Positions 24,356 to 46,849 are shown, counted from the first letter of the stretch. The stretch: DNA of 56,336 bases from Candidatus Ozemobacteraceae bacterium (GCA_036567845.1 DATCTT010000298.1:1-56336), one strand, 5' to 3'. Numbers and translations are program-made. Notes: a model not told the origin generated them from the sequence alone.

Positions 24356-24493
24356 CTCGTTTGTACGTACCATCCACAAGCCACACGGGGAGACGATGAA
24401 CATTCACCTCTCATGCATGCAGGGCAGGATGCCGATGGTTTTCCTGACACAGAACGAGATCTGTTCCGGCAATTTTCACATTCGGGAGTCGGC

Positions 24494-24877: not shown

Positions 24878-24879
24878 TT

Positions 24880-27887: not shown

Positions 27888-27940
27888 ATGCGTTGAAATA
27901 TTATGTAAACTCGCCTTGTGCGAACTCATCCGAGGTAGTC

Positions 27941-29425
27941 ATGAAGTCGTTCCAGATGCTGCTCTCTCCCCCCCCTCTCGCGTGTTCCGGAAATCTCGAC
28001 GTGCCCGTCACAGGCGTCGCCTTCGATTCCCGCAAGGTCGAACCCGGCTTCCTGTTCGTTGCCATGCCCGGATCGGCGAACGATGGCGCCCAGTTCATCA
28101 CTGATGCCGTCAGACGCGGCGCCACCGCCGTCGTGACCCAGGGCCCCCTCGATGGAATTCCCGTTCCGGCCGCGCGCGTGGCGGACGCCCGCCGCACCCT
28201 CTCCTCGATCGCCCGCGCCTTCCATGACGATCCCTCGAAACGGCTGAATCTGATCGCCATCACAGGCACGAAGGGCAAAACGACGACCACGTATTTCGTC
28301 CAGTCAGTTCTCCGCCAGGAGTTCGGCCAGGCGTTCCGATTCGGAACGGTCGAGTATGACCTCGGTTTCGATGTCAGGCCGGCGAAAAACACGACACCCG
28401 AATCGCTCGATCTGACCGCACTCCTCTCGGAGGCCCATGCCCGGGGCATCCGGGCCGGCGTCATGGAGGTCAGCTCTCACGCCCTGAAAACCAGCCGGGT
28501 CGAGGATCTCACCTTCGCGGCCGCAGGCTTTTCGAATCTGTCGCTCGAACACACCGAGTTTCACCCGAACATGGAGGATTACTACCAGGCGAAACGCCGG
28601 TTGTTCCTCGAGCTTCTGCCGTCCGGTCGGGAGGCGGTGATCGGCATCGATGACGCGTGGGGTCGTCGCCTCGCGGACGAGTGCCAGGCTGCCGGCCGCA
28701 AGGTCCGGACGATCAGCGTTCGCGGAGAGGCCGATATAAAAGCAACTAATATAAAACTAGGCGGAATGTCTTCCGAGTTCGAGATCGCCGCTGAGGGGCG
28801 CACGTATCCCTGTCGGCTGGCTCTGGCAGGGGAGTTCAACGTGTTCAACGCGCTCATGGCCGCCGGTCTCTCCCGCGCTATCGGCGTCTCCTGGGAAACG
28901 ATCATCCGAGGTCTGACAGCTCTCACATCGGTTCCGGGACGGTTTGAAAGCATTCCGAATCATCGCGATCTCACCGTGATCGTCGATTACGCCCATTCCC
29001 CGGCCGCCCTCGAAAACCTGTTGGTCGCCGTGCGGCCCCTGGCGGGAAAGGGGCGCGTCATCTCCGTGTTCGGCTGCGGTGGAAACCGCTCCACCGAAAA
29101 GCGGCCGGTCATGGGGCGGCTCTCGGCGACGCTCGCCGACATTACCGTCGTGACCAGCGACAATCCGCGCAAAGAAAAGCCCGAGGAGATCATCTCACAG
29201 ATCGTCGCCGGCATCGAGGCCGTCCCGGCGGACAAACGGCGTGAAGTTCACGTCGAGGTCGACCGGCGGAAGGCGATCGCCATGGCCATCGAACTGGCGA
29301 AGCCCGGAGATGTGCTTCTGATCGCCGGCAAGGGGCATGAAACCGGCCAGACATTCGCGGACCGGACGCTGCCCTTCGACGACCGTCTGGTCGCCAAGGA
29401 ACTTCTCGAAGGAGCGAAGGCATGA
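27941..29425 (+). CDS. murE: UDP-MurNAc-tripeptide synthetase MurE (mDAP-type)
   Basis: DSRKV, GTKGKTTT, TTPES, MEVSSH, DYAHSP, DNPR specificity motif, GKGHE. Confidence 0.95.
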   Translation: MKSFQMLLSPPPLACSGNLDVPVTGVAFDSRKVEPGFLFVAMPGSANDGAQFITDAVRRGATAVVTQGPLDGIPVPAARVADARRTLSSIARAFHDDPSKRLNLIAITGTKGKTTTTYFVQSVLRQEFGQAFRFGTVEYDLGFDVRPAKNTTPESLDLTALLSEAHARGIRAGVMEVSSHALKTSRVEDLTFAAAGFSNLSLEHTEFHPNMEDYYQAKRRLFLELLPSGREAVIGIDDAWGRRLADECQAAGRKVRTISVRGEADIKATNIKLGGMSSEFEIAAEGRTYPCRLALAGEFNVFNALMAAGLSRAIGVSWETIIRGLTALTSVPGRFESIPNHRDLTVIVDYAHSPAALENLLVAVRPLAGKGRVISVFGCGGNRSTEKRPVMGRLSATLADITVVTSDNPRKEKPEEIISQIVAGIEAVPADKRREVHVEVDRRKAIAMAIELAKPGDVLLIAGKGHETGQTFADRTLPFDDRLVAKELLEGAKA

Positions 29426-30828
29426 GCGGAACCCCTGACTGGAGCTTTTCCGATCTTCTCGCCGCGACGGGGGGGGTTCATACCGGTGGCTCCCCTCGGC
29501 CAATCACGGGTTTTTCGATCGATTCTCGCACGCTTGCCCCCGGCGATGTGTTCGTCGCCTTCAAGGGGGAACGCACCGACGGCCACGCCTACATTGCCCA
29601 GGCGATCGCGAAAGGTGCTGCTGCCATCGTTTCCGCGCGCTGGGTCGAGGGAAGCGAGCCTACCGAGAGCGATCCGGCTTGGATCCGCTGTGATGATCCC
29701 CTGCGCGCTCTCCAGGACGCGGCCCGTTTCCACCGGGCGCGCCACAAGGCACTCTTCATCGGCGTCACGGGCAGCAACGGCAAGACGACGACGAAAGAGA
29801 TGCTGCTGCATCTCTTTTCCGGCATTTCGAAGACCTGGGCAACGACGGGCAACTTCAACAACGACATCGGACTGCCTCTCAGCCTGGTACGCATCCCGCT
29901 CGCAACCGAGACTGCCATCATCGAGATGGGGATGAACCATGCCGGCGAGATCCGGTTCCTGGCGGGCATCGCCCGGCCGCATGCGGCAATCATCACCAAC
30001 ATCGGTCCGGCGCACATCGGCAATCTCGGCAGCCTCGAGAACATCGCCCTGGCCAAGGCCGAAATCCTCGAAGGACTCGCTCCCGACGGACTCGCCGTTT
30101 TGCCGGGGGATGACCCCTGGCTTACCTCCCTCCGGGCGAAAACCCGCGCCCGGGTCGCCAGTTTCGGGTTTGGCCCCGGTTGCGACTGCAACGGCCAGAA
30201 CGTCTCAATGGAAGCCGATGCGATCTCGATGGACGTCTCGTATGGCGGCTCCCGGGCCCACGCCCGCTTGGGTCTGCTGGGCAGGCACAATGCGCTGAAC
30301 GCCCTGGGGGCTCTCTCCCTCTTCGTCAGCCTCGGCCGCCGCCCCCTCGCCGAAGGCGTGGCCCTGCTCGAGCGGTTCAGTCCCGTCGCCGCACGCATGG
30401 AGTCGCATGAAATCGACGGGAAACGCGTGATCCTCGACTGTTACAACGCGAATCCCTCCTCGATGAAGCAGGCCGTTGAATATCTTGCCGTATGCAAAGG
30501 CCGCCGCGTCGCGGTGCTCGGTGACATGCGCGAACTGGGCGACCAGTCCGAAGCCCTTCACCGAGACCTCGGCGCAGCCGTCGCCCGGCTCGGCCTCGAT
30601 CGCCTCGTCGCCGTCGGCGAACAGGCGCAGTATATCGCCCAGGCAGCTCTCCAGGCTGGCATGGCCCCAGTTTCCGTCCATCCCTGCGGGGACGTGGGCG
30701 AAGCGTCGAAGCTGCTCGAAACCCTCCTGCTGCGCGGCGACACAGTGCTTCTGAAAGCCAGCCGCGGCATGCATTTCGAATCGATTGTGAAGGCGCTCTG
30801 GCCATCGTTGCCCTGCGATCTTCACTGA
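29422..30828 (+). CDS. murF: UDP-MurNAc-pentapeptide synthetase MurF
   Basis: IDSR, DGHAY, TGSNGKTTTKEM, NFNNDIGLP, EMGMNH, DCYNANPSSM, LGDMRELG, KASRG. Confidence 0.95.
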   Translation: MSGTPDWSFSDLLAATGGVHTGGSPRPITGFSIDSRTLAPGDVFVAFKGERTDGHAYIAQAIAKGAAAIVSARWVEGSEPTESDPAWIRCDDPLRALQDAARFHRARHKALFIGVTGSNGKTTTKEMLLHLFSGISKTWATTGNFNNDIGLPLSLVRIPLATETAIIEMGMNHAGEIRFLAGIARPHAAIITNIGPAHIGNLGSLENIALAKAEILEGLAPDGLAVLPGDDPWLTSLRAKTRARVASFGFGPGCDCNGQNVSMEADAISMDVSYGGSRAHARLGLLGRHNALNALGALSLFVSLGRRPLAEGVALLERFSPVAARMESHEIDGKRVILDCYNANPSSMKQAVEYLAVCKGRRVAVLGDMRELGDQSEALHRDLGAAVARLGLDRLVAVGEQAQYIAQAALQAGMAPVSVHPCGDVGEASKLLETLLLRGDTVLLKASRGMHFESIVKALWPSLPCDLH

Positions 30829-30880
30829 GTCCTGATCCCTGAAGGGAGATACCTGTACGTTCGCAGCCATTTTCAGCGCC

Positions 30881-31954
30881 ATGACCGTCCGCATCCTGTT
30901 CGCTCTTTTGACCTCGTTCCTCGTGGCGGTTTTCATCGGCCCCCGGGTGATCGACCATCTGAAAAACAGACAGATCGGCCAGACGATCCGCGAAGAAGGG
31001 GTTCAGGAGCACAAAAAGAAAGCCGGCATCCCCACGATGGGCGGCCTGATCATCCTGATCCCGTTCCTGCTCACAACCATCCTCTGGGCCCGCTGGCACC
31101 CGGCCGTCGGCATCGTTCTGTTCACCACGTTCGCGATGGCGATGCTTGGGGCGACAGACGATCTCACCAAGGTCATCAAAGCGCGCAGTCTCGGTCTCAC
31201 TCCGCGCCAGAAGCTCGCTGCGCAGATTCTCACGGGGTTGGTGACGGCATACGCGGTCAAGACTTGGCTGGGAACAGGAATCGAACTCGCGACCCCACTT
31301 TCCGGAGAAACGGCCGGCGTTTTCCTGCCTTCCACATGCATTCAGATTCCCTGGGTGGGCATCGTCGATCTCGGATATCTGTACATTCCGTTCGTGACGT
31401 TCGTCATCGTGGCTTTCAGCAACGCGGTGAATCTGACGGACGGCCTCGACGGCCTGGCCGGAAGCGTGACGCTGACCGTGCTCGTTCCGATGATGGTGAT
31501 CACCTTCGTGACGGGGGTTCCGGCCCTCGCGAAGGGGCTGGGCACGGCATTCATCCCCGGCTCAACGGAGCTGACGATCCTGGCAGCAACGCTTTTCGGC
31601 GGCTGCCTGGGATTTCTCTGGTATAACGCGAATCCAGCCCAGGTGTTCATGGGCGACACCGGATCGATGGCTCTTGGCGGCGCGATTGCCGCGCTCGCGG
31701 TCTGCACCCGGACGGAATTTTTTCTTGCCCTGGTCGGTGGGGTGTATGTCGCCGAGGCGGTGTCGGTTGTTCTCCAGGTTTCGTATTTCAAATACTCGGG
31801 CGGGAAGCGCATCTTCCGGATGAGCCCGATTCATCACCACTTCGAACTGTGCGGCTGGGCCGAACAGAAGGTGGTTGCCCGGTTCACGGCCGTCAGTCTG
31901 CTGCTCTGCCTGGGAGGCATCGCGCTTTTCGCCATGCGCCTTGCCGCAGGATGA
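30881..31954 (+). CDS. mraY: Phospho-MurNAc-pentapeptide transferase MraY
   Basis: KKAGIPTMGG, DD, NAVNLTDGLDGL, PAQVFMGDTGS, FRMSPIHHHFE. Confidence 0.96.
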   Translation: MTVRILFALLTSFLVAVFIGPRVIDHLKNRQIGQTIREEGVQEHKKKAGIPTMGGLIILIPFLLTTILWARWHPAVGIVLFTTFAMAMLGATDDLTKVIKARSLGLTPRQKLAAQILTGLVTAYAVKTWLGTGIELATPLSGETAGVFLPSTCIQIPWVGIVDLGYLYIPFVTFVIVAFSNAVNLTDGLDGLAGSVTLTVLVPMMVITFVTGVPALAKGLGTAFIPGSTELTILAATLFGGCLGFLWYNANPAQVFMGDTGSMALGGAIAALAVCTRTEFFLALVGGVYVAEAVSVVLQVSYFKYSGGKRIFRMSPIHHHFELCGWAEQKVVARFTAVSLLLCLGGIALFAMRLAAG

Positions 31955-32046: not shown

Positions 32047-33462
32047 TCAGCGGTAGAAGATCGAGAGCTGGACGTTCTGCATGCGGATGTCGAGAGCATC
32101 TTCATTGCGGGCGGCGAAGAAGTAGGAGGCACTCGGGTTGTTGCGGACGAAGTCCGTGACATCGACCGTGTAGCGGGTCATCGGATTGGTCGCAGCGAAC
32201 TCGCCCAGGTGGAAGCCCAGGAGGGCATTGTTTCCGACCCACCAGCCACCCAGGTTCTTGATGACCTGCACCTGTTGGGCCGAGCTTATATAGGCCTGCA
32301 TGCGGGCGCCGCCGGTGTAGCGGTATTCGGCATCGAACACCATCTCGGCACGGGTGAACGCGAGGCTGACAAAATCGATCGCCACCGGGGTTTCGAGGGC
32401 CATCTCGGCATACGCGCCATTGGCATCGGCCAAAGGGAAGAATTCCGAGAACCAGCCGGTGTTGGCAACCGAGCTGCGGATGACAGCCGGGTTCATCTCG
32501 GCGGTAACCTCAGCAACCTCGCCCCCCTTCACGATAACGGTCGAATTCCGATCGAGATATTCGGGATGAGTGAGTTTCACTTCGTAGGTCCCGTTCGGCA
32601 CCTTGGTGAAGGAGAATGCACCGTTCGCATCAGAGACGGCTTTGAAAGCAGAACCGGACAGGCTGACTGAGACACCAGGGAGAGGGGTCTTCTTCACGTA
32701 GTCGAAGACAATGCCGGACACATCACCATCAGTGGCAGCAACAACCTTCTGGACAAGCGTCGAGCTGATCTTCACGATGGGCAGAAGCATGTATTCCGTG
32801 GTCTTTTTCTTACCAAAACCTCTCACTTTCAGGGAAAGCTTATTGAAGAAGCGAATCGAAACTTCCGTTGAGTAGCCATCCTTGATTTCAAACGAACCGA
32901 AGAACCGGACGCGGTTGCTCGGAATGACAAGCGGGTAGGAGGTGCCGCCAACGACGACGCGCCCGCTCTTGATGCGGAATTCCATATAATTATAGAGGCC
33001 TGCGGCCAGAGGGGTATCAGCCAGAATGTCAGTGATGACGGAGGGATTGCTCAGGTTGATTTCCTTCGAAGTGATATTGAAGGGAATCGGGCTTCCGACC
33101 TTCGGCTTGACCTTCATGGAATCGAGGGTTATAAAGATACTATCCGCGCTCGTGGCGGAAAGAACCCGCATTTTGAGGCTTCCGGGGCCAACCTTGGATG
33201 AACTTCTGACTTTGTGAGCAACAACAAACGAAGGTTCCGCATACGAGTAGCGGCTCTTCCCGAGCGCCAAGGGACGAGCACGCGCAGCGAGAACCTGAGC
33301 GGAGGCGAGCTGTTCTTCCTGCGCAGTCAGGGCAGCGTTCGCCTGCTCCGAGAGGGAGGAATCGGCGACGGGATTGAATCCACCGCTGCCGAGACAGCCG
33401 GCGACCACCAGCGGCAACACACCGAGTATGACCAGGATGATTGTCTTTTTCAGTGTTGTCAT
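32047..33462 (-). CDS. Lipoprotein with DUF4382-like and carboxypeptidase-regulatory-like (beta-sandwich) domains
   Basis: Lipobox VVAG|C; ITLDSMKV..EINL..G.YNYMEF..LVIPSN..LLPIV; SGIVFD..PLPGVSV..SDANGAFSF.KVPNGTY; GGAGG RBS before 33462. Confidence 0.75.
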   Translation of the reverse strand: MTTLKKTIILVILGVLPLVVAGCLGSGGFNPVADSSLSEQANAALTAQEEQLASAQVLAARARPLALGKSRYSYAEPSFVVAHKVRSSSKVGPGSLKMRVLSATSADSIFITLDSMKVKPKVGSPIPFNITSKEINLSNPSVITDILADTPLAAGLYNYMEFRIKSGRVVVGGTSYPLVIPSNRVRFFGSFEIKDGYSTEVSIRFFNKLSLKVRGFGKKKTTEYMLLPIVKISSTLVQKVVAATDGDVSGIVFDYVKKTPLPGVSVSLSGSAFKAVSDANGAFSFTKVPNGTYEVKLTHPEYLDRNSTVIVKGGEVAEVTAEMNPAVIRSSVANTGWFSEFFPLADANGAYAEMALETPVAIDFVSLAFTRAEMVFDAEYRYTGGARMQAYISSAQQVQVIKNLGGWWVGNNALLGFHLGEFAATNPMTRYTVDVTDFVRNNPSASYFFAARNEDALDIRMQNVQLSIFYR

Positions 33463-33522: not shown

Positions 33523-36500
33523 ATGTACCACCCGCCGTCATGGGCGTTTTTTCTTTTCGGGCCCCTTCTACCTCTGATTCTATCAGAGAAATCAAAAAAC
33601 CGCACGTTTTCCCCGACAGGGATATTTTCCCTCCTGATTGTCTTATTAGGGATTTTTTCCCCATATCCGGCTCTCGCTAAGGGGCCGGTCCCTTTCACGC
33701 AGCCCATCACGACGATGTACGGCGCCTCTTTCTCCTTTTCCGTACCCTTGGAATCGAGAAGGGTGTACATCGACACGGCCTGTTTCAACACAACGGGCAA
33801 GCTTGCAACGACGACCGGAATACCGCCCTTCACGTCAGCCTTTCCTTTCTGGCCAGAATCTCTGACCCAGGCAAGCTGGGGGACATCACCCAAACACACG
33901 TACACGACGACGAACCTTTCCATCGCCTATCAGGCCGGGCAAATCACCCTCAGCGACAATTCCGACATGGAGGTCGGAGATGTCATTTTCGCTTCCGCTG
34001 AATCGGATTCAAGGCTGCGGGTCTATGCTTTCGGCGCTGAAGCAAACATCAATCTTTCTCCGAAAGCCGGATTCCCGGTTATTGCCACGAGCACACCCAT
34101 CTCAAAGCCGTTTGGCATGGTGACCACCACAGGGGGTGTCCAGCTCTTCTGGGGCAGCGGAACGCCCGGGAAACTTTCGCATTCTCTCATCAAAGGCACC
34201 TCGGTTCTGCCCACTCCCACCCCGGTCCTGGCTTCGATGAACAGCAACTACGGCGTGTCTGCGTGCAGAATCGGACAGCCGTCGGACCGTCTTCTCGGCG
34301 TCGCCGTGGTTCTTGGGACAGCAGCGACCGCAAGCACAGCCCAGCTCCTGGTCCTGAACGAGGCAGATCTCTCGATCGCAGCCACGAAGACCCTTCAAAC
34401 CGGCAATATTAAATCCTCCCACGTCGAGATCACCCAGAACCCCCGCAGTGGCGTGATAACCATCGGTTATATATCTGACAATACAGCTTCGGTTTCGAAT
34501 TTTTTGTACTCCGCCGGAACATTCGTTGCGACGACCACCCCGTCGATCGGAGGCGTCTGGTCCGAATCGACATTGACGGGATTCGGCATTGAAGGATATT
34601 CCAACTTCGAAACCTCGTTCGTCGGGAACGACCGGGACACTCCCCTTCTGCGCGACGCTCTGCTTCGTTCGTCGAGTTCCATGGTCAGCGGCACGTTCGG
34701 AACCCCGGGTATCGTTTCCCTGTTTCCCTATGACCGGTCTGGCGTGCTCAGCGCCTGTCTGGTGGTCCGCAAAAGCGACTACAAAAACTTCGAGCTCTGG
34801 ACACGCCCGTTGAACTACCCGAAATTATGCACCTGGGACCAGAGTTCTTCGGTGCTGTATCTGGAAGGGCCGCCCTTCCCCGGAACAACCGTCACCGTCA
34901 CAGCATCGTTTCCCGAGCCCCTCATCGAGTCCAGCACCGCGTCCGCGGTCAATGCTCTCGGAGGGGCTCAGCCGTTTACAGCGCCGACAACACGCCTGAT
35001 CGCGTCCGCCGGGGCCCAGTTCATTCTCGCGTTCACCGACCCCATGATGACCGCATCGTTCCCCGCCTGGGTTGGCGAAACGGCAGGGAAGCAGATCCGG
35101 ATGTTCGGACCGGGCAGCACCTCCGTGAACATCGGCTATACGACCCACACGTCCCGCTCCGTCGTCTGCTCCCTCGAGGAGACGCTTGCATTTGATACAT
35201 TATATTATATCCAGATTGCTAGCGATGTCCTCAATGCGAGCGGAACCCAGCTTTGGGAGCCAGCCACCTTTTCCATCCGCACCCAGCTTGCCAACTCCGG
35301 CATTCTTGCAAGCGAGGTTCTCGCCATCGAGGCCTTTCGGGATGCCGCACGGACAGATCTGATTCCGGCCGGAAGCGATATTTCCGCGACTTCCACCCTG
35401 TATCTCCGCATCCGCGCCAGAGACCCGGCGTTCAACACAATCGACTTCGCCACCGCCACGTATATCGTCGATGGAACGAACCTCGCCACTCTTTCCTTCG
35501 CCCAGCCCAGCGCTTCGACCGAAACGTTTTACACCCCCGCGACGACAACGGCGCTCGCCTGGGGCGTTCCCCACACCCTCCGATTCCAGACAGCTTCACC
35601 GACCGCCTCGGTGACGTTTGTCGTCACCTTTCCCACGACGTTACCGCTCGCCCCCGCCTCGGGAGCCGCAGCCGTCCCCGTCACCTCGACGATCACGATC
35701 CAGGCGAACGAGCCTCTCGACCCGGCTTCGGTCGTCGCAACAACGGCGCGGCTGCTGATCGGCGGCGTTCCAGTTCCGGCAACCCTGTCCTATGATCCCG
35801 CAACCAGGGTCATCACGATCACCCCGGCTGCCAATCTTCTCAGTGAAACTCTCTACACCGTCGAGGTAGGCAGGATTCGGGACGCTGCGGGAAATCCCCA
35901 GGTCGCGACCCTCAGCTACACCTTCACGAGCGCCGACGTGACGCCGCCAGCCCTTCTGGCGTTGTCGCCCGCATCCGGCTCGACGGGGGTCACGATCGAC
36001 ACACGGATCGCCCTGACGTTCTCCGAACAGCTCGCCACCCCCAGCGTGAACCCGGCAACCGTCCGCCTCCTCCGTCCCGATGGAACCGCAAGCTATGCCG
36101 TCAGCCTCAACGGACGCGTCATCACCATCGATCCCGACGATACGCCAGACGGCTTCCTTCGCACGATCACCACCTACACCGTCGCCCTGGGGGCCGGCGT
36201 ACGCGACATCGCCGGCAACTCCTTCACCTCGGTTCCGGCCACATTCACCGCCACCTTCCAAACCCAGGCCTCCTCCACCCCCCCCCTCGCCGTCGCCACG
36301 TTCGGCCTGTATCGCGACGCGGCCCGGACGGACCCTTTCACCGCGGCCGAGGCCGTATCCGGCACCGCCACCGTTCATCTGAGGCTAACCGGCACCGACG
36401 GCGCAACCCAGACAAGGGATATTGCCGATGTCGTGTTACGTACCACGTGGGGTCCTGCCTTCACCCTGCCCGTGCTTGAAATCGCCTCGGACTCCACCGG

Positions 36501-39500
36501 TATCTATCACTATAGTTATATTCTCGCAAGCATACCTGTCTTCGATTTTGCAGGCACACTTCCGCCCTCCCCCGTCGCCACGATCAGCTTCATCCCGGTG
36601 GGCAATCCAGCCGAGGAAGCGACTCTGACGGTCAGGTTTCCGGTCTTTGTTCCGGCTCAGACAACAGTCCAGACCCTTTCGGGAAGCGCGCTTGCCAGCG
36701 GCGCTTCTGGTGTCAGGCTTGATTCCGGTGTTTCCCTGCGATTCACCCTCCCGCTGGATCCGTCAACCATCGACTCCGGCTCGATCCAGTTGATAGCCTC
36801 ATCTGGTCCGATAGCGGCAACCCGCACCCTGAGCCCCGACGGACAGACGCTCGTGATCACCCCGTCGACCCGGCTCACCGCTTCCTCGACCTATCTCGTC
36901 CGGGCGGTCTATGCCGCGACCGGTCTGCGCGGGCTGGACGGGAACCCCCTGTATCGCCCCTTCGAGTTTGCCTTCACGACTCAGCCGTTCCAGACCCCAC
37001 CGCTCTCGGTCGGCAACGCTGCTCTCTTCTCGAAATCCGGCTACACCCCCGCCGACCGGCTCGTCCCGGAAGGGGACGGCCCCGGGAGCGGCACCCTGTA
37101 TCTCGAGTTTCAGGGAATCGACGGCTCGAATCTAACCGTCGACGCAACCCTTGCCTCCCTTTCGACCGGCGGTATCGCCACCCTGACGGAAACCGGAGCG
37201 GCAACGGGAATCTACCGGGGGAGTTTTTCCGTTTCTGGACTTCCCGACGGGTACCGGCTAATCGCCGCCTCAACCGTCTCACCGGCCGCCAGTGCGACCT
37301 TGGTCATCACGTATCCGAAGTTCGTCTCCGTCACCCCGGCTTCGGGCGCCACCGATATCACGATCGACAACCGGATCTTCATCACGCTTACAGAGCCCCT
37401 CGATGCCGCGAGCGTCACGACGAACACGGTGCGTCTGACTCGGCCGGATGGACAGGCCATGTACACCGTCGGCGTCACCGGCAGCAACATCATCATCGAC
37501 CCGAATGATACGCCCGACGGGTATCTGCGGACGCTCACCAGCTACACCGTCGCCTTGGGCGCCGGGGTGCGTGACCTCTACGGCAACCCCTTCATCTCCA
37601 ACCTCGCAACCTGGACGTCCTCTTTCCAGACCCAGCTTTCTTCCACTCCGCCATCCGCCGTAAACACCCTTACGCTGTACAGGGACGCAGCAAGAACCGA
37701 TGCCTACTCTGCCTTCGAAAGCGTTTTCGGAAAAGCTCCGGTATTTTTGAAGCTGACGGGAACCGACGGTGCAACCCAGACCCGGGACATTGCAAGCGTC
37801 ACCCTCCGGACCTCCTGGGGGCCAGAATTCATCCTCCCCCTGCTTGAGACGGCCTCCAACTCGAGCGGTTTCTATTATTATGATTATACACTTGCAAGTA
37901 TACCTGTTTTCGACGAGGTGCTTACGCTTCCGCCGGCACCCGTAGCCACCATCAGTTTTCTTCCACCGACCGGTCCCGCCGCGGGCGCGACCCTGACGGT
38001 GCTTTTTCCGGCCTGGCTTCCAGCCCAGACGACCGTACAGACACTGGTCAGTGCGGTGCCGGCGAGCGGCGCGACAGGGGTGCGGCTCGACTCAGGCATT
38101 TCGCTGCGATTTTCCTCGGGCCTGGCCGCCACGACGGTCGACGAGATCTCACTCCAGCTGCTCGGCCCCTCGGGAGCCATCCCTGCTTCGCGGGTCACGG
38201 CTCCGGATGGTCAGACCATTCAGATCACCCCTGCCGCGCCGCTGGCGGCGGCATCGACGTATCGGGTGAAAGCCGCATCATCCCTTTCCGGAATGCGCGG
38301 AGTCACGGGCAATCCCTTGTATAGAGGGTTCGAGTTCGCTTTCACGACCCAGAATGCCCAGACTCCCCCCACAGCCGTTTCGGAAACCCTTCTGTTCAGT
38401 CTTCCCGGGTATGATCCCTTCACCCGGCTTGCGACCGAAGCCGATTGTCCGAACACCGGCACGCTGTACGTCGAAATGCGGGGAACCGATGGTTCGCCCC
38501 TGACCGTCGACACCGTGGTCGCATCGATTTCCACCGGAGTGGCCGCCACACTGACGGAAACGGGCGCGGCCACGGGCATCTATCGGGGCAGCTTCGCGGT
38601 TGCCGGGCTGGCGGACGGGTTCCGCCTCATCGTGGCCCCGAGCGTCTCACCGGCCGCCAGTGCCACCCTCGTCGTCACGTATCCCACTCTCACCGTCGGC
38701 CTGCCGGCTTCAGGCGCGACGGGCATCTCTGTTCAGACGACGGTCGCCGCCCAGGCCGACGAACCCCTCGCCCCCGCCACGATCGGGACAGCCACAGTCA
38801 GGCTGCGAACGGGAACAACCCTCGTTCCCTCGTCGGTCTCGTATGCCAGCCCGGAACGCCAGGTTCTCCTGACCCCCACCGCTCCGCTATTGTACAATAC
38901 AAACTACATTATCGACATTTCCGGCTTGCGCGATGAAGCTGGCAACCCGCTCTCCGCGCCTCTGTCCTGGAGTTTCCGAACTCAGGACAGCACGGTCCCC
39001 CCGACCAATCTTCTGACCCTGGATGTCTTCTCGGATTCCGGCTATTCTTTACTTCTCGCCTCCGGCAGCCTGGTCACCCCCGGAAGCCGGCTTTTCATCC
39101 GCATCACGGCTACCGATGCCTCACCCGGCACGATTGATGCGACTGGGGTCCGCTGCTCGTCGAATCTGAACGCCTCCCCTATCACCATATCGCTGGTCGA
39201 ATCCGCCCCGGCCTCGGGAATGTTTCTCGGCTCGGTTCCCGTGTTCCCTGAAGCGGGAGCTCTACTGACCATCGAATCCCTCACCGCCCCCGCCCTCCGT
39301 CGGCAGTTTCGCACCCCCACCCGGCCCTCCATCACCAGCCTGGTCCCCGCCTCCGGCTCATCGGATCTCCCCTTTGACACCCTGTTTTCGATCCGGACGG
39401 ACAAACCCGTCGACGGCCTGACCCTGACGGCCGCCACCGTGCGGCTGTCGGACCTCCGGGGCTACCTCGTGGCCAGCATGGCTCTTCGCTCACCGACGGA

Positions 39501-42500
39501 AATCCTCGTTGAGGCCGACCTCGCGACGGATTCCGGGGTCAGCCTTGAGGTGACCAGCGGCCTCGCCGACACCGATGGCATGAGCTTCCCAGCCACCATC
39601 GCATCGTATGCGACCCTGACCCCCTCGTATGGGCCGCTCACGGTGTATGCGGATGCGGGATTCACGCAGGTGCTGCCCACCGAAAGCGTCGTCAAGCCGG
39701 GCGACCTTCTCCGGGTGCGACTGTCCGCGACGGATACCCGGACACGCTCCCTGGAATCGCTTGCCGCTGCGTTCTCGGACGGCATCGCAACGACGGGGTT
39801 TCCGATAACCGAAATCGCGGCGGGGGAGTATCGCGGCGGGTTCGCGGTTCCGGCGCACCCCGGCGCGACGCTGACCATCTCGCTCCCGATCGCTCCCGGT
39901 CTCACGGAACGGCTTCACATCCAGGAGTCGTTCCGGGTCACGCTGGTCGACCCGGCGGACGGAGCGGCGGCGGTTCCGGCCGATGTCTGGCCGACATGGC
40001 GATTTTCCCGGCCTCTCTCGGCCGCGACGACGTTCGACGACACCCGGTTCCGGCTCCGCAAACTTCCGGCAGGGACGCTCGTTTCCGGCAACGTGTATCC
40101 GTCCGCCGATCAGACCGTCGTCGAGTTCCTGCCGGACATGTTTCTCGACCTTTCGACGGCTTATCAGCTCGAAGTGGATGGCGGAATCACCGATACCACG
40201 GGCGCTCCCCTCGGCACCGACTTCATCACCGGCTTCGTGACCCAGCCGCCACCTCCACCACCATCAACCGTCCGGTCGATCGCCCATTTCCGTGACGCGG
40301 GATTCACGACACCCTGGCCGGGAGTGATTCCGGGGGATGCCCTGTATCTCGAGGTCCGCGCCGACGACATTTCGTTCTCAACGGTCGACTCGACGCGTGT
40401 CCGGATCGATGCAACCGATGGCTCGTTCGTCGCGACAGCCGTCATGCTTCTCGAGGAGACGGGTCCCGACACGGGAATATTCCGGCGTGTTCTGCCTACA
40501 ACCACAGCCGAAGGCCAGACAATCACGGTCCGCTCCCAGGCAGATTCGAACTACCGGCTGGACCTGCCGGTCTTTTCGCGGCCCAAGCTTGCCGGAATAT
40601 CGCCGGCTTCGGGAAGCGGAAATCTCTGGCTCGATCAGCCGCTCCGGCTGACCTTCACCAAGCCGCTCGAAGCCACGCTGATCGCCTCGGGCGGCATCAC
40701 CGTCCGCACACAGGCGGGAACCCCGATCCCCCTCACCATCGAACGGTCCGCCGATGGCAAGACCCTCACGCTCAGCCCTTCCGGACAATGGGCGACCGGT
40801 ACGGAACACCTTGTGTCCCTGGGGCTTCCCCTTCGTGATACGGACTGGGTGCCCATCCCGGAGACACGATTCTCGTTCACGACCCGATCCATTGCTCCAC
40901 CGCTCCTCGAGCTGTTTTCAGGCATCGCCAGCCGTGCTGGCACGCCGGTTTCCGCTTTTCATGAATCGCTCCCGGGAAGCATCCGCGCGACGGCATCTGC
41001 AACGGATCTCTTCGGTTTCCGGCCAGAGACACGGCACGTGCGGCTTCAGGGGGCAACCGGTACAGCGGGGTTCGATCTCACGGAGATCGCGACGGCGCCC
41101 GGTTTATTTGCTGGCAGCGGCATCCTGCCCTTCGCGCGCGGTTCGGCAGCCACGGCAACCCTGGAGTTCGGCGCCCGGCCCTCGCTCGGCTTCGTAGTTG
41201 CCCCCCTACCCCGTCTTCTCGGACTTCACCCCGCATCCGGAGCAGCATCGATTGCGGAAGCCGTCGTCATCACCGCTTCGTTCTCACGTCCGATCGATCT
41301 TTCCCCTGCCCCCACTCTCGCGCTGCGCGTGAACGGCGCGGCATCCACCGGCCTTCTCAGCACCTCCGGGGAGTTCGCGACCGAGGTGCAGTGGATCCCC
41401 GACATGGCCCTTCTTCCCGGGGCACGCGTGGAGGCCGTCTTCCCGGTGCTGCAAGACAGACTGGGACAGCCACTCCAGGTGGCGCCAACCGTTTTCTCGG
41501 TCGTCGGCATCCAGGGCATGATCCTGTACACGGATCCGGCGTTCACCCGCCCCCTCGTCGGCACGCTTGTCAGCGGACCAAGCGTCTGGATCGAAGTGGC
41601 CGCCTCGGGCCCGATCATCGTCCCCCCGGCATCTCGCCTTCTTCAGGCTTATGCCCAGCGGAACGCCACGATGCCCTACCTGCTTCCGCTGGATCAGGCC
41701 GAAGCAGCCAGCCGCCGGTTCCGGGGCCGCATAGATCTGGAGCCGGCCCGTGGCATCTCGAGCGTGACGATCCCGGTCGTTCCGGGGGAGCGCATCGACA
41801 TGTTCGCCCCCGTGCTGACCGGCCAAACGAAATATATCTATTACCGTACAACCGGCAACACCCCGCCGGTGAAGATCCGGCGGCTGAGCGCGTTCACGGA
41901 TATGCATTACCGGCAGCCCCTCGAAGGGGGGGATCTTCCCCAGACGACGGTGTATCTCGAGATCGAAGCCGAGGATCTCAACTGGCTGCATGCCGATTCC
42001 ACGGACCTTTCCGTCACGTCGGACAGTGACCCGGCCGGGTTCGAACTGACCCTTCGGGAAACGGCCCCGCACAGCGGTATCTTCCGCGCCGCGCTTTCCC
42101 TGAACCCCCGCACCGGCCTCAGCAATGGAGCCGGCGCCGTGATCGCCGTCCGGCCCGGCGAAAGCATCGTTCTCCGCTCCGCGGCAGACCCCGGGGTGGT
42201 TCTGCGCCTCCGATACCAGCCTCTGACACGGCTGGATCATCTTTCGGTCTGGCCGAGCCCGGTCCGTGGGGACCGGGTCACGTTCAGCTTCTGGCTCACC
42301 ACTGCCGCTTCCGTCGATATCACCATTTTCGACGCGAGTGGAGACGAAGTCTGGTGGCTAACACACGCCTGCCGGACAGGAGAAAACCGGGTCACCTGGA
42401 ACATTCCGCGGCGCATTGCAAATGGGGCGTATCTGTACCGTCTGGAACTGCATCCCGAGACGGATGCGCCGGTTAAGAAGCGAATCTTCAAGGGCAAGTT

Positions 42501-42516
42501 TGCGATTTTACGGTGA
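33523..42516 (+). CDS. Giant (~3000 aa) secreted surface protein: about 10 Big_5/SbsA-type Ig domains alternating with a second repeat, ending in a T9SS/FlgD-type CTD
   Basis: Repeated PASGA..V..D....FS.PL...SV and Y......RD..GN.....F.F.T motifs; signal-peptide-like KSKNR...PALA|K. Start codon uncertain (track start 33214 overlaps the opposite gene). Confidence 0.85.
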   Translation: MYHPPSWAFFLFGPLLPLILSEKSKNRTFSPTGIFSLLIVLLGIFSPYPALAKGPVPFTQPITTMYGASFSFSVPLESRRVYIDTACFNTTGKLATTTGIPPFTSAFPFWPESLTQASWGTSPKHTYTTTNLSIAYQAGQITLSDNSDMEVGDVIFASAESDSRLRVYAFGAEANINLSPKAGFPVIATSTPISKPFGMVTTTGGVQLFWGSGTPGKLSHSLIKGTSVLPTPTPVLASMNSNYGVSACRIGQPSDRLLGVAVVLGTAATASTAQLLVLNEADLSIAATKTLQTGNIKSSHVEITQNPRSGVITIGYISDNTASVSNFLYSAGTFVATTTPSIGGVWSESTLTGFGIEGYSNFETSFVGNDRDTPLLRDALLRSSSSMVSGTFGTPGIVSLFPYDRSGVLSACLVVRKSDYKNFELWTRPLNYPKLCTWDQSSSVLYLEGPPFPGTTVTVTASFPEPLIESSTASAVNALGGAQPFTAPTTRLIASAGAQFILAFTDPMMTASFPAWVGETAGKQIRMFGPGSTSVNIGYTTHTSRSVVCSLEETLAFDTLYYIQIASDVLNASGTQLWEPATFSIRTQLANSGILASEVLAIEAFRDAARTDLIPAGSDISATSTLYLRIRARDPAFNTIDFATATYIVDGTNLATLSFAQPSASTETFYTPATTTALAWGVPHTLRFQTASPTASVTFVVTFPTTLPLAPASGAAAVPVTSTITIQANEPLDPASVVATTARLLIGGVPVPATLSYDPATRVITITPAANLLSETLYTVEVGRIRDAAGNPQVATLSYTFTSADVTPPALLALSPASGSTGVTIDTRIALTFSEQLATPSVNPATVRLLRPDGTASYAVSLNGRVITIDPDDTPDGFLRTITTYTVALGAGVRDIAGNSFTSVPATFTATFQTQASSTPPLAVATFGLYRDAARTDPFTAAEAVSGTATVHLRLTGTDGATQTRDIADVVLRTTWGPAFTLPVLEIASDSTGIYHYSYILASIPVFDFAGTLPPSPVATISFIPVGNPAEEATLTVRFPVFVPAQTTVQTLSGSALASGASGVRLDSGVSLRFTLPLDPSTIDSGSIQLIASSGPIAATRTLSPDGQTLVITPSTRLTASSTYLVRAVYAATGLRGLDGNPLYRPFEFAFTTQPFQTPPLSVGNAALFSKSGYTPADRLVPEGDGPGSGTLYLEFQGIDGSNLTVDATLASLSTGGIATLTETGAATGIYRGSFSVSGLPDGYRLIAASTVSPAASATLVITYPKFVSVTPASGATDITIDNRIFITLTEPLDAASVTTNTVRLTRPDGQAMYTVGVTGSNIIIDPNDTPDGYLRTLTSYTVALGAGVRDLYGNPFISNLATWTSSFQTQLSSTPPSAVNTLTLYRDAARTDAYSAFESVFGKAPVFLKLTGTDGATQTRDIASVTLRTSWGPEFILPLLETASNSSGFYYYDYTLASIPVFDEVLTLPPAPVATISFLPPTGPAAGATLTVLFPAWLPAQTTVQTLVSAVPASGATGVRLDSGISLRFSSGLAATTVDEISLQLLGPSGAIPASRVTAPDGQTIQITPAAPLAAASTYRVKAASSLSGMRGVTGNPLYRGFEFAFTTQNAQTPPTAVSETLLFSLPGYDPFTRLATEADCPNTGTLYVEMRGTDGSPLTVDTVVASISTGVAATLTETGAATGIYRGSFAVAGLADGFRLIVAPSVSPAASATLVVTYPTLTVGLPASGATGISVQTTVAAQADEPLAPATIGTATVRLRTGTTLVPSSVSYASPERQVLLTPTAPLLYNTNYIIDISGLRDEAGNPLSAPLSWSFRTQDSTVPPTNLLTLDVFSDSGYSLLLASGSLVTPGSRLFIRITATDASPGTIDATGVRCSSNLNASPITISLVESAPASGMFLGSVPVFPEAGALLTIESLTAPALRRQFRTPTRPSITSLVPASGSSDLPFDTLFSIRTDKPVDGLTLTAATVRLSDLRGYLVASMALRSPTEILVEADLATDSGVSLEVTSGLADTDGMSFPATIASYATLTPSYGPLTVYADAGFTQVLPTESVVKPGDLLRVRLSATDTRTRSLESLAAAFSDGIATTGFPITEIAAGEYRGGFAVPAHPGATLTISLPIAPGLTERLHIQESFRVTLVDPADGAAAVPADVWPTWRFSRPLSAATTFDDTRFRLRKLPAGTLVSGNVYPSADQTVVEFLPDMFLDLSTAYQLEVDGGITDTTGAPLGTDFITGFVTQPPPPPPSTVRSIAHFRDAGFTTPWPGVIPGDALYLEVRADDISFSTVDSTRVRIDATDGSFVATAVMLLEETGPDTGIFRRVLPTTTAEGQTITVRSQADSNYRLDLPVFSRPKLAGISPASGSGNLWLDQPLRLTFTKPLEATLIASGGITVRTQAGTPIPLTIERSADGKTLTLSPSGQWATGTEHLVSLGLPLRDTDWVPIPETRFSFTTRSIAPPLLELFSGIASRAGTPVSAFHESLPGSIRATASATDLFGFRPETRHVRLQGATGTAGFDLTEIATAPGLFAGSGILPFARGSAATATLEFGARPSLGFVVAPLPRLLGLHPASGAASIAEAVVITASFSRPIDLSPAPTLALRVNGAASTGLLSTSGEFATEVQWIPDMALLPGARVEAVFPVLQDRLGQPLQVAPTVFSVVGIQGMILYTDPAFTRPLVGTLVSGPSVWIEVAASGPIIVPPASRLLQAYAQRNATMPYLLPLDQAEAASRRFRGRIDLEPARGISSVTIPVVPGERIDMFAPVLTGQTKYIYYRTTGNTPPVKIRRLSAFTDMHYRQPLEGGDLPQTTVYLEIEAEDLNWLHADSTDLSVTSDSDPAGFELTLRETAPHSGIFRAALSLNPRTGLSNGAGAVIAVRPGESIVLRSAADPGVVLRLRYQPLTRLDHLSVWPSPVRGDRVTFSFWLTTAASVDITIFDASGDEVWWLTHACRTGENRVTWNIPRRIANGAYLYRLELHPETDAPVKKRIFKGKFAILR
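35968..38703 (+). repeat. Tandem intragenic duplication, two diverged 1368-bp (456-aa) units
   Basis: Equivalent landmarks are exactly 1368 nt apart: PASG at 35968/37336/38704, LTETG at 37183/38551, V/LLE motif at 36472/37840. Confidence 0.9.
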
Positions 42517-42519
42517 GGA

Positions 42520-42528
42520 TGCTACGAT
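42520..42528 (+). promoter_or_regulatory. Candidate extended -10 (TGCTACGAT) for ybaB
   Basis: Lies upstream of the AAGGAG RBS and ATG 42576. Confidence 0.4.
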
Positions 42529-42575
42529 AAACGCGTTATCACCGCCATTTCGACCCGAAAAGGAGCGTATGATCA

Positions 42576-42902
42576 ATGTTTCCCAAAGGTGGCGCCAATC
42601 TCCAGGGGCTGATGCGCCAGGCCCAGAAAATGCAGGAAAAGATGGCTGAGACGCAGGAAGAGCTGAAGAAGCGGACGGTCGAAGCCAGCGTCGGCGGCGG
42701 CATGGTGACGGTCGTCGTGACCGGGGCCCAGGAGCTGCAGAAAATCACCATCAACAAGGAAGCCGTGGACCCCGATGACGTCGAGACCCTCCAGGATCTC
42801 GTCCTGTCGGCCGTCAACACCGGCATCCGAAAGTCCCAGGAAATGGTCCAGGAAGAGATGGGAAAAGTGACCGGCGGTCTGAATATTCCCGGGATGTTCT
42901 GA
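42576..42902 (+). CDS. ybaB: Nucleoid-associated protein YbaB/EbfC
   Basis: LMRQAQKMQEKM, GGGMVTVVVTG, DPDDVETLQDLVLSAVN, TGGLNIPGMF. Confidence 0.95.
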   Translation: MFPKGGANLQGLMRQAQKMQEKMAETQEELKKRTVEASVGGGMVTVVVTGAQELQKITINKEAVDPDDVETLQDLVLSAVNTGIRKSQEMVQEEMGKVTGGLNIPGMF

Positions 42903-42946
42903 ACGCACGGCGGATACGCCCGGGCGCAGTCCCCCCGATTCCCCAT

Positions 42947-42981
42947 GAAGCGAGCCCTCCCTGGGCTCGTTTCGTTTTTTT
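42947..42981 (+). terminator. Intrinsic terminator after ybaB
   Basis: GAAGCGAGCCC-TCCCT-GGGCTCGTTTC stem followed by G and 7 T. Confidence 0.85.
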
Positions 42982-43657: not shown

Positions 43658-43658
43658 G

Positions 43659-46814: not shown

Positions 46815-46849
46815 GGACTACGGCCCCGTGAGAGTTGCCGCGGTCCGTG

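What the first reader, a model, noticed from the sequence alone, without database searches (positions are those of the whole stretch)
42232..42516. T9SS type-A / FlgD-Ig-like C-terminal sorting domain on a giant protein in a genome that looks non-Bacteroidota
Seen: the final ~95 aa read VWPSP...VTFSFWL...VDITIFDASGDEV...GENRVTWN....ANGAYLYRL......KGKFAILR. Known: this fits the Por secretion tail pattern (YPNP...GxYxY...K.x.I), which routes cargo through T9SS in Bacteroidota and relatives. Inference: either T9SS-like export occurs in this lineage, or the CTD fold serves a different, unknown export or anchoring route.
Basis: partly seen in the sequence, partly recalled or inferred. Interest (0 to 1): 0.72.

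Follow-up and report, generated by a model that had tools for sequence, protein, structure and literature searches.

The report
Sorting-type tail on Riflebacteria giant protein
The last 94 residues of a 2,997-residue surface protein from an uncultured Riflebacteria genome are a real but divergent relative of the "type A" tail that Bacteroidota use to export and anchor surface proteins, and it is not known whether this unrelated phylum has the matching export machine.

Summary
Window 42232-42513 encodes the last 94 aa of a 2,997-aa, signal-peptide-bearing protein with 11 Big_5 Ig repeats (33523-42516). Alone the tail is below every curated cut-off (TIGR04183 18.9/23 bits; PF18962 21.4/27; FlgD_ig 15.5/27). 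Its 23-member subfamily does belong: 22/23 hit TIGR04183 (best 2.8e-9). hhalign to C-terminal tails that are 49/55 PF18962-positive gives 99.8-99.9%, aligned to the last residue. AlphaFold gives a confident 7-strand sandwich, distinct from the protein's internal repeats.

The genome is Riflebacteria (MraY 94% to an Ozemobacteraceae MAG), not FCB. This tail subfamily occurs only on orthologues of this one giant protein. The gene sits at a fixed place after mraY in the dcw cluster, beside a divergently transcribed lipoprotein, in six Riflebacteria loci.

No T9SS component appears in the window or in 233 kb of Riflebacteria DNA I could read.

My best reading (0.45) is a surface sorting/anchoring tag used without a canonical T9SS. 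A true T9SS cargo signal is about 0.25 and a passive structural end domain about 0.2. NCBI already labels one Riflebacteria fragment "T9SS type A sorting domain". I rate it a new member of a known kind, of moderate interest.

The parts
33523..42516 (+). Giant gene (2,997 aa plus stop): a Sec-exported, acidic (pI 5.0), Thr/Ala/Ser/Pro-rich Ig-repeat surface protein. NCBI calls its orthologues 'Ig-like domain-containing protein'.
   Evidence: ORF; gene call of 2,997 aa; Big_5 at 386 bits; composition; orthologue names.
33523..33681 (+). N-terminal signal peptide (53 aa): a basic n-region (EKSKNR), then h-region TGIFSLLIVLLGIFSPYPALA and an ALA|KG cleavage-type site. It carries the family-wide 'GIFS' motif twice.
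   Evidence: Read directly from the sequence. The motif is shared with P0006, P0010, P0020-22 and P0025. No signal-peptide predictor was available.
34978..41499 (+). Stalk: 11 Big_5 (PF13205) Ig-like domains alternating with spacer domains of about 100-130 aa.
   Evidence: Pfam reports 10 stretches. Local jackhmmer maps 11 copies.
42232..42513 (+). C-terminal tail (94 aa, pI 9.4): a 7-strand beta-sandwich of the type A CTD / Por_Secre_tail family. Motifs are WPSP, D..GDEV, GEN..W, ANGAYLY, a basic loop (KKRIFKGK) and a terminal strand FAILR-COOH.
32047..33462 (-). Divergently transcribed partner: a 471-aa lipoprotein (MTTLKKTIILVILGVLPLVVAG|C) with DUF4382-like, CarboxypepD_reg and C-terminal domains. 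The family is seen only in Riflebacteria. It lies next to the giant gene in all six loci that cover both genes.
21602..24307 (+). Secreted clostripain-like (Peptidase_C11, clan CD) protein of about 900 aa. Its position upstream of ftsL is conserved in the same locus. Any link to the tail is speculative.
   Evidence: for the protein; for synteny.
24413..31954 (+). dcw cluster context (ftsL/divIC, mraW, ftsI, murE, murF, mraY) directly upstream of the lipoprotein-giant pair.
   Evidence: the same order is seen in L084-L087.
42576..42975 (+). ybaB (42576-42902) immediately after the giant gene, followed by a strong terminator-like hairpin (42945-42975). The giant-ybaB order is conserved.

Best explanation
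The tail is a genuine, divergent member of the type A C-terminal sorting-domain family. It sits on a giant fibrillar surface protein that is conserved across the phylum Riflebacteria.

Proposed working, with the basis for each step:
1. The protein crosses the inner membrane by Sec. This is inferred from the signal peptide seen in the sequence.
2. Its acidic stalk of 11 Ig domains ends in a small basic beta-sandwich whose last strand runs to the free carboxyl end (GKFAILR-COOH). This is shown.
3. The sandwich is the address and anchor module that fixes or delivers the protein at the outer face of the envelope. This is inferred.
4. In this lineage it does so without a canonical Bacteroidota-type T9SS. 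The most plausible mechanism is docking on a lineage-specific envelope partner, and the co-conserved DUF4382/CarboxypepD_reg lipoprotein encoded divergently next door is the prime candidate. This is inferred.

It works like a T9SS type A CTD in being a terminal beta-sandwich tag on a Sec-exported surface protein. Membership of a T9SS pathway is not shown.
For: Homology: 22/23 subfamily tails hit TIGR04183 and 17/23 hit PF18962. The best PDB sequence match is PorU's own CTD, 6za2. hhalign gives 99.8-99.9% to C-terminal tails that are 49/55 PF18962-positive, aligned through the last residue.

Tag-like behaviour:
- The tail is at the exact C-terminus in all 24 class-A proteins (23 to 24 clusters at 50% identity), with 18 invariant columns including the final strand.
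- It is more conserved than the body: 37-68% identity against about 27-57%.
- It is unrelated to the protein's internal repeats.
- It is basic on an acidic protein.
- The model is confident, with pLDDT 92 and 7 strands.

Against a canonical T9SS:
- The lineage is Riflebacteria, placed among diderm Terrabacteria, while reviews confine T9SS to FCB.
- This tail subfamily occurs only on orthologues of one protein among 1.84 billion representatives.
- No T9SS family was hit in the window or in 233 kb of Riflebacteria loci.

Partner: the lipoprotein is seen only in Riflebacteria (63 clusters) and is always adjacent and divergent.

Precedent: Por_Secre_tail is a recognised anchor of fibrillar adhesin-like proteins (PMC8286594).
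Against: No whole Riflebacteria genome could be scanned, so T9SS genes elsewhere are not excluded. The 233 kb read is largely the same syntenic region.

The 'one cargo family only' result covers only tails similar enough to this query (161 hits). CTDs within one genome are often very divergent from each other.

CTD-tailed genes with a PorV/PorQ-family neighbour exist in non-FCB Endomicrobiia, so T9SS-like parts do occur outside FCB.

Nothing shows that the lipoprotein touches the tail rather than another part of the giant protein.

Foldseek finds only generic Ig-like sandwiches, so the fold gives no functional information.
Confidence: 0.45

Rival explanations
1. The tail is a true T9SS cargo signal. 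Riflebacteria would encode a T9SS, or a reduced PorV/PorU-type 'type IX sorting' module, elsewhere in the genome. The tail would be bound by a PorV-like shuttle, passed through a SprA-like translocon, then cleaved and the protein anchored.
For: - Full-length profile homology to type A CTDs, including motifs B, D and E and the terminal basic strand.
- A Sec signal peptide is present.
- NCBI already names a Riflebacteria fragment 'T9SS type A sorting domain-containing protein'.
- The closest non-family relatives come from genomes with T9SS parts: Fermentibacterota PorU-like sortases at 418.6 bits, and an Endomicrobiia PorV/PorQ-family barrel at 104.9 bits (cut-off 90) directly after a CTD-tailed gene.
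Against: - T9SS is reported only in FCB, and no paper links Riflebacteria with T9SS.
- Riflebacteria are placed in Terrabacteria.
- No T9SS component is found in the window or in 233 kb of Riflebacteria DNA, and no PorU or PorV match was found with seeds.
- No PorU-like or other Riflebacteria protein family carries this tail type.
Confidence: 0.25
2. The tail is a passive structural end domain. It would be simply the last Ig-like (FlgD-Ig-type) module of a long stalk, with no sorting or anchoring role. Its resemblance to CTDs would reflect common ancestry of a widespread beta-sandwich.
For: - The same domain family occurs as 5-18 tandem internal copies in monoderm Firmicutes such as Acetivibrio cellulolyticus ('FlgD immunoglobulin-like domain containing protein') and Neobittarella, where no T9SS can exist.
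- Foldseek returns only generic Ig-like folds.
- The window sequence is below all curated cut-offs.
Against: - There is a single copy, always at the exact C-terminus, with the final residues invariant.
- It is closer to the C-terminal class than to the tandem-repeat class (162 against 81; the last strand aligns only with the former).
- It is more conserved than the stalk and opposite in charge.
- It is distinct from the 11 Big_5 repeats.
Confidence: 0.2
3. The tail is a dedicated PorU-like processing substrate. The co-syntenic secreted clostripain-like C11 peptidase (clan CD, the same clan as the C25 sortase PorU) would cleave or transfer the tail, as a lineage-specific analogue of PorU. This is a sub-case of the best explanation.
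For: - The C11 gene keeps its position upstream of ftsL in the same locus in the window, L003, L004, L084, L085 and L087.
- It has a signal peptide and motifs consistent with the catalytic His and Cys, identified by inspection.
- It belongs to the clostripain family.
Against: The evidence is only synteny about 9 kb away, across the dcw genes, plus a clan-level relation recalled from MEROPS classification. There is no sequence similarity to PorU. No conserved Arg is seen at a putative cleavage site upstream of the tail.
Confidence: 0.07
4. The finding is an artefact: a chance motif match, or a mis-binned or chimeric FCB contig.
For: The single-sequence HMM scores are below threshold.
Against: - The family-level statistics are strong.
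- The same gene order occurs in six independent Riflebacteria assemblies, including a 5.2-Mb contig.
- Housekeeping genes on the same contig place it in Ozemobacteraceae.
Confidence: 0.02

Closest known systems
T9SS type A C-terminal domain (TIGR04183 / Pfam PF18962 Por_Secre_tail), e.g. the CTD of P. gingivalis PorU (PDB 6za2) and of F. johnsoniae cargo (8glj_D)
   Same: - An extreme C-terminal beta-sandwich of about 80-95 aa with 7 strands.
- It sits on a protein with a Sec signal peptide.
- Motifs match: (W/Y)P(S/N)P, G.Y.Y and a basic terminal strand.
- Profile-level homology over the full length.
   Different: - The window sequence is below the curated cut-offs.
- There is a conserved basic loop of about 12 residues before the last strand.
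- The end is an invariant GKFA(V/I)LR-COOH.
- The tail is found on only one protein family.
- The host phylum is Riflebacteria, not FCB.
- No T9SS genes were seen in the DNA available.
FlgD Ig-like domain (PF13860), as tandem repeats in Firmicutes surface proteins (e.g. Acetivibrio cellulolyticus WP_010245240)
   Same: The same beta-sandwich superfamily: hhalign 98.4%, and 6/23 tails hit PF13860 weakly.
   Different: Those copies are internal, tandem (5-18 per protein) and lack the terminal basic strand. The alignment stops before the last strand and the score is half that to the C-terminal class.
T9SS type B CTD (CHU_C, PF13585 / TIGR04131) with an adjacent PorP/SprF partner gene
   Same: A cargo gene paired with a dedicated adjacent partner gene. 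There are weak CHU_C hits (14.8 bits for the window; 14/23 family members at E<=0.01).
   Different: The partner here is a lipoprotein with a CarboxypepD_reg domain, not a PorP/SprF beta-barrel. The tail scores better with type A models.
[quoted passage not shown] 2021, PMC8286594)
   Same: A long stalk of repeated Ig-like domains plus a C-terminal Por_Secre_tail-type anchor.
   Different: Those are mostly in Bacteroidetes. Here the protein is a single-copy, phylum-wide gene at a fixed position in the dcw cluster, and no adhesive head domain was identified.
Giant RTX/LapA-type adhesins (T1SS) and autotransporters (T5SS)
   Same: Giant repetitive surface proteins with export information at the C-terminus.
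   Different: This protein has an N-terminal Sec signal. It has no RTX repeats, no C-terminal beta-barrel and no T1SS genes nearby.

Membership tests
Por_Secre_tail / T9SS type A CTD (sequence family TIGR04183, PF18962) | The sequence reaches the curated HMM cut-off | tested here: not met
   Window tail: TIGR04183 18.9 bits (cut-off 23); PF18962 21.4 bits (cut-off 27).
Por_Secre_tail / T9SS type A CTD (sequence family TIGR04183, PF18962) | Profile-level homology of its subfamily to bona fide members, over the full domain | tested here: met
   - 22/23 subfamily tails hit TIGR04183 at E<=0.01 (best 2.8e-9) and 17/23 hit PF18962 (best 5.4e-7).
- PF18962 is precomputed on P0004, P0151 and P0152.
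- hhalign gives 99.8-99.9%, E 1e-29 to 1e-32, to tails that are 49/55 PF18962-positive.
- The best PDB sequence hit is the PorU CTD.
Por_Secre_tail / T9SS type A CTD (sequence family TIGR04183, PF18962) | Located at the extreme C-terminus of the protein | tested here: met
   The tail ends at the stop codon in the window. The C-terminal gap is 0 in all class-A proteins.
Por_Secre_tail / T9SS type A CTD (sequence family TIGR04183, PF18962) | N-terminal Sec signal peptide on the same protein | tested here: met
   Read from the sequence: basic n-region, hydrophobic h-region, ALA|K site. It is conserved in full-length orthologues. No dedicated predictor was run.
Por_Secre_tail / T9SS type A CTD (sequence family TIGR04183, PF18962) | Seven-strand Ig-like beta-sandwich fold | tested here: met
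   The AlphaFold2 model made with the 23-sequence alignment has pLDDT 92, pTM 0.82 and 7 strands. Foldseek finds only generic Ig-like sandwiches (TMq 0.6-0.7) with no CTD entry in the top 50, so the fold is compatible but not diagnostic.
T9SS cargo (functional membership of the secretion pathway) | The genome encodes the T9SS core (SprA/Sov, PorV, PorU, PorK/L/M/N, PorT and others) | not testable with these tools
   Only the 56-kb contig and flanks of up to 10 kb around orthologous loci could be read. None of the genes in the window, or in 233 kb of Riflebacteria DNA in total, hits a T9SS family.
T9SS cargo (functional membership of the secretion pathway) | The host belongs to the FCB superphylum, where T9SS is known | tested here: not met
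   MraY is 94% identical to a Ca. Ozemobacteraceae MAG and 57-58% to two other near hits, one named Rifleibacteriota (L004). Partner and giant orthologues are all named Riflebacteria or Ozemobacter. Riflebacteria are listed among diderm Terrabacteria. T9SS is described as FCB-restricted.
T9SS cargo (functional membership of the secretion pathway) | Many unrelated cargo families in the same lineage share the tail | tested here: inconclusive
   All class-A hits with this tail type and enough upstream sequence (21 of the 24) are homologous to the giant protein upstream of the tail as well; the other three are short fragments. No other tailed ORF occurs in 233 kb. However, the search only reaches tails similar to the query, and no Riflebacteria proteome was available.
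T9SS cargo (functional membership of the secretion pathway) | The CTD is cleaved and the protein is attached to anionic LPS by PorU/PorZ | not testable with these tools
   This needs proteomics or biochemistry.
FlgD Ig-like domain (PF13860) | Reaches the Pfam gathering score | tested here: not met
   15.5 bits against a cut-off of 27. Only 6/23 subfamily members hit at E<=0.01. hhalign to tandem FlgD-Ig repeats gives 98.4%, but partial and weaker than to the C-terminal class.
T9SS type B CTD (CHU_C PF13585) | Reaches the Pfam gathering score, with an adjacent PorP/SprF gene | tested here: not met
   14.8 bits against a cut-off of 27. The neighbour is a lipoprotein, not PorP/SprF.
Big_5 bacterial Ig-like domain proteins (PF13205) | Repeated Big_5 domains above threshold | tested here: met
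   386.5 bits and 10 stretches; 11 copies mapped. This applies to the stalk, not to the tail.

The most novel reading that the evidence does not exclude
Riflebacteria would use a type A CTD-like tail in a dedicated, T9SS-independent envelope pathway. One phylum-wide giant Ig-repeat protein, encoded inside the division/cell-wall (dcw) cluster, would be delivered to or tethered at the cell surface through its terminal beta-sandwich by the co-conserved DUF4382/CarboxypepD_reg lipoprotein. It might also be processed by the co-syntenic clan-CD C11 peptidase, as a PorU analogue. This would be an independent route of surface-protein sorting built on the CTD fold, in a diderm lineage unrelated to FCB.
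Probability: 0.2. Interest if true: 0.75.

Novelty: new member of a known kind. Interest (0 to 1): 0.42.

Why it matters
T9SS and its C-terminal sorting domains are treated as an FCB-superphylum invention.

This tail is a clear sequence relative of the type A CTD. It sits on a single, universally conserved giant envelope protein of a phylum placed among the diderm Terrabacteria. It is encoded at a fixed place in the cell-division/cell-wall gene cluster, next to a lineage-specific lipoprotein.

There are two possible outcomes:
- If Riflebacteria have T9SS genes, the known range of that system grows well beyond FCB.
- If they do not, the CTD fold is being read by something else. That would be a new way of placing proteins on an outer membrane, and a hint about where T9SS signals came from.

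Either answer can be had from one HMM scan of genomes that are already public.

At present it is a divergent family member that public annotation has already partly recognised.

Tried and rejected
- **Word-index homologue search with the tail alone** found nothing. With the 23-sequence alignment it found only 4 short fragments.
- **Foldseek against PDB** returned only generic Ig-like sandwiches (GbpA domain 2, the Wzt carbohydrate-binding domain, complement MG domains) and no CTD structures in the top 50. Fold search cannot decide the question.
- **The single-sequence AlphaFold model** of the last 200 aa was poor outside the tail (pLDDT 54). It was replaced by the alignment-based model.
- **Literature searches** linking Riflebacteria with T9SS or type IX secretion returned zero papers. 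A search for phylum-wide T9SS surveys gave nothing relevant. The Riflebacteria passages read say nothing about secretion.
Looking up the window's end genes gave no DNA beyond the window.
- **PorU-like and PorV/PorQ-like seed proteins** from Fermentibacterota and Endomicrobiia loci, searched against all Riflebacteria DNA held, matched only CTD to CTD.
- **Rejected routes and signals:** T1SS/RTX, autotransporter, LPXTG and PEP-CTERM-type signals. The protein has a Sec signal, no barrel, no RTX repeats and no terminal transmembrane helix.
- **Rejected, 'the tail is another Big_5 repeat':** only the terminal domain matches the tail HMMs.
- **Rejected, 'contig mis-binning':** the synteny is conserved in six assemblies.
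- **Not Riflebacteria-like at this locus:** ADurb.Bin157 (L005) lacks C11, the lipoprotein and the giant gene near mraY.

Full report
**1. The observation**

It is the C-terminus of the longest ORF in the window, 33214-42516 on the + strand. An independent gene call on an identical metagenome contig starts the gene at ATG 33523, giving 2,997 aa.

That start is followed by a typical Sec signal peptide: basic EKSKNR, a hydrophobic stretch TGIFSLLIVLLGIFSPYPALA, then KG. The body is recognised by Pfam only as Big_5 Ig-like repeats (386 bits). I mapped 11 copies between residues 486 and 2659, alternating with spacer domains of about 100-130 aa. The mature protein is acidic (pI 5.0), rich in Thr, Ala, Ser and Pro, and has about 1% Lys. 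The 94-aa tail is basic (pI 9.4).

**2. Is the tail a Por secretion tail?**

Taken alone it is a sub-threshold match to every relevant model:

| Model | Bits | Cut-off |
|---|---|---|
| TIGR04183 | 18.9 | 23 |
| PF18962 | 21.4 | 27 |
| FlgD_ig | 15.5 | 27 |
| CHU_C | 14.8 | 27 |

The CTD segments of PorU (NF033707, E=1.9e-5) and of a T9SS-dependent M6-like protease model also match.

A full HMMER scan of 1.84 billion representative proteins gave 161 hits at E<=1e-3. They fall into three classes.
- **Class A.** 24 proteins with 37-68% identity over the whole tail, always ending at the exact C-terminus. Every one with enough upstream sequence (21 of them) is also homologous to the window's giant protein upstream of the tail; the other three are short fragments.
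- **Class B.** 20 proteins with 3-18 tandem internal copies.
- **Class C.** About 106 unrelated proteins, nearly all with a single copy within 0-7 residues of their C-terminus (three carry a second, internal copy).

The class A alignment (A1) has 18 invariant columns. Its consensus is WPSPxRG..VTF.FYL.F...V.L.IYD.AGDEV....G.EGEN...W..PR.LANGVYFY, then a loop of about 12 residues, then KRK.RGKFAVLR-COOH.

Scanned one by one, 22/23 members hit TIGR04183 (best 2.8e-9), 17/23 hit PF18962, 14/23 hit CHU_C and 6/23 hit FlgD_ig. The A1 profile's best match among solved structures is the CTD of PorU itself (6za2, E=2e-4), and a cargo CTD (8glj_D) is also listed.

Class C proteins are 49/55 PF18962-positive. 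They carry the usual mixed cargo: C25, PAD, esterase, GH130, beta-propellers. hhalign of A1 against class C gives 99.8-99.9% probability and aligns through the final K..v.R strand. Against the class B tandem repeats the score is half as high and the last strand is not aligned.

An AlphaFold2 model built with A1 is confident (pLDDT 92, pTM 0.82) and has seven strands. Foldseek against the PDB finds only generic Ig-like sandwiches, so the fold neither confirms nor refutes. Tail HMMs match nothing else in the giant protein, so the tail is not simply another stalk repeat.

Conclusion: this is a divergent but genuine member of the type A C-terminal sorting-domain sequence family. This one sequence fails the curated cut-offs.

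**3. Whose genome?**

The window contains mraW-ftsI-murE-murF-mraY. MraY is 94% identical to a Candidatus Ozemobacteraceae MAG, 57-58% to the next three hits (one of them a named Rifleibacteriota MAG) and 46% or less to everything else.

The sources name the giant protein's orthologues 'Ig-like domain-containing protein [Candidatus Ozemobacteraceae / Riflebacteria bacterium]'. One 150-aa fragment (MBP5469055.1) is already named 'T9SS type A sorting domain-containing protein [Candidatus Riflebacteria bacterium]'.

One phylogenomic study lists Riflebacteria among diderm Terrabacteria with OmpM-type outer-membrane tethers. Reviews confine T9SS to the FCB superphylum. No paper in the library mentions Riflebacteria together with T9SS.

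**4. Context**

The same gene order recurs: secreted Peptidase_C11 (~900 aa), ftsL, mraW, ftsI, murE, murF, mraY, then a divergent lipoprotein, then the giant gene, then ybaB. The full C11-to-ybaB order is seen in four independent Riflebacteria assemblies, including a 5.2-Mb contig. The lipoprotein-giant-ybaB core is seen in six assemblies, and a Ser/Thr kinase, TPR and PP2C genes lie downstream in most of them.

The lipoprotein (32047-33462, minus strand) has the lipobox LVVAG|C. It has a weak DUF4382 match and a CarboxypepD_reg domain. Its family of 63 clusters is named only from Riflebacteria.

The giant protein is thus a single-copy, phylum-wide envelope gene with a dedicated neighbour. 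It sits where the dcw cluster normally continues.

**5. T9SS machinery**

None of the genes in the window hits a T9SS family in Pfam or NCBIfam. The same holds for Pfam annotations of the flanks of five orthologous loci.

PorU-like and PorV/PorQ-like seeds taken from other phyla match nothing in the 233 kb of Riflebacteria DNA I hold, apart from the giants' own tails. This DNA is small and largely syntenic. Whole genomes could not be scanned. Presence of a T9SS in the lineage therefore remains untested.

Two side results cut in opposite directions.
- The domain family is used as internal tandem repeats in monoderm Firmicutes, where T9SS is impossible.
- In a non-FCB Endomicrobiia MAG, a CTD-tailed gene is followed directly by a PorV/PorQ-family barrel (104.9 bits, cut-off 90). 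T9SS-like parts therefore do exist outside FCB.

**6. Mechanism**

Shown:
- a Sec-type signal peptide;
- an acidic Ig-repeat stalk;
- a single terminal, basic, highly conserved CTD-family sandwich ending in an invariant strand;
- a co-conserved neighbouring lipoprotein.

Inferred: the sandwich is the module that addresses or anchors the protein at the cell surface.

| Reading | Probability |
|---|---|
| Tag or anchor working without a canonical T9SS, probably with the lipoprotein | 0.45 |
| True T9SS or T9-sorting cargo | 0.25 |
| Passive structural end domain | 0.20 |
| Artefact | 0.02 |

It rests only on synteny and clan membership.

**7. Comparison and novelty**

The tail works like a type A CTD and belongs to its sequence family. 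Membership of the T9SS pathway is not established, and one defining feature (an FCB host) is not met.

The architecture matches 'fibrillar adhesin-like protein with Por_Secre_tail anchor' (PMC8286594). Public annotation has already labelled a fragment.

I rate it a new member of a known kind, with interest 0.42. The open question is well posed: one HMM scan of existing complete Riflebacteria genomes decides between a T9SS outside FCB and a new use of the CTD fold.

Noticed in passing
window 33523-33681; also P0006, P0010, P0016, P0020-22, P0025, P0027: The signal peptides of the giant-protein family share a 'GIFS/GIFC/GKFS' motif in the hydrophobic region, often duplicated (window: TGIFSLLIVLLGIFSPYPALA). 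It may be a lineage-specific extended signal-peptide signature. Its function is unknown.
   Followed up: partly
window 24413-42902; L084-L087: In Riflebacteria the dcw cluster runs ftsL-mraW-ftsI-murE-murF-mraY and is then interrupted by the lipoprotein and giant-protein pair instead of murD/ftsW/murG. The position is fixed in all assemblies that cover it, including a 5.2-Mb contig.
   Followed up: yes
window 21602-24307: A secreted clostripain-like Peptidase_C11 protein of about 900 aa, with a long uncharacterised C-terminal half, always lies just upstream of ftsL in the same conserved locus. It belongs to clan CD, like the T9SS sortase PorU (family C25).
   Followed up: partly
window 42986-48091 (- strand); L086 17450-22557 (+ strand): Only in Ozemobacteraceae, a five-gene set lies next to the giant gene. 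It includes pseudopilin-like proteins (weak N_methyl and T2SSJ hits) plus unknown 413-aa and 724-aa proteins. It is inverted between the window and L086, and absent from L083-L085 and L087.
   Followed up: partly
L092 3178-8479 (Endomicrobiia MAG GCA_025060535.1): [quoted passage not shown] T9SS-like sorting parts therefore occur in Elusimicrobiota, outside FCB.
   Followed up: partly
L091 10001-18326 (Fermentibacterota MAG GCA_041686025.1): Two PorU-like C25 sortase genes lie close together, separated by a SIR2-family gene. They score 341 and 418.6 bits against NF033707 (cut-off 420), and each carries its own CTD-like tail.
   Followed up: no
P0003, P0008, P0013, P0023, P0029, P0031, P0032, P0034-36, P0039 and others: The same domain family occurs as 5-18 tandem internal copies in large proteins of monoderm Firmicutes (Neobittarella massiliensis; Acetivibrio cellulolyticus 'FlgD immunoglobulin-like domain containing protein').
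   Followed up: partly
window 50577-54226 (- strand); L083-L085, L087: A Ser/Thr kinase, small TPR protein and PP2C phosphatase module, plus a conserved ~155-aa unknown protein, accompanies the giant gene's neighbourhood across Riflebacteria.
   Followed up: no
window 33463-33522: Only about 60 bp separate the divergent start codons of the lipoprotein (good GGAGGG ribosome-binding site) and the giant gene (no obvious ribosome-binding site). The two promoters must overlap.
   Followed up: no
L005 (bacterium ADurb.Bin157, MraY 57% identical): This relative has the dcw genes but no C11 peptidase, lipoprotein or giant gene next to mraY. The module is therefore not universal among the nearest MraY relatives.
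   Followed up: partly
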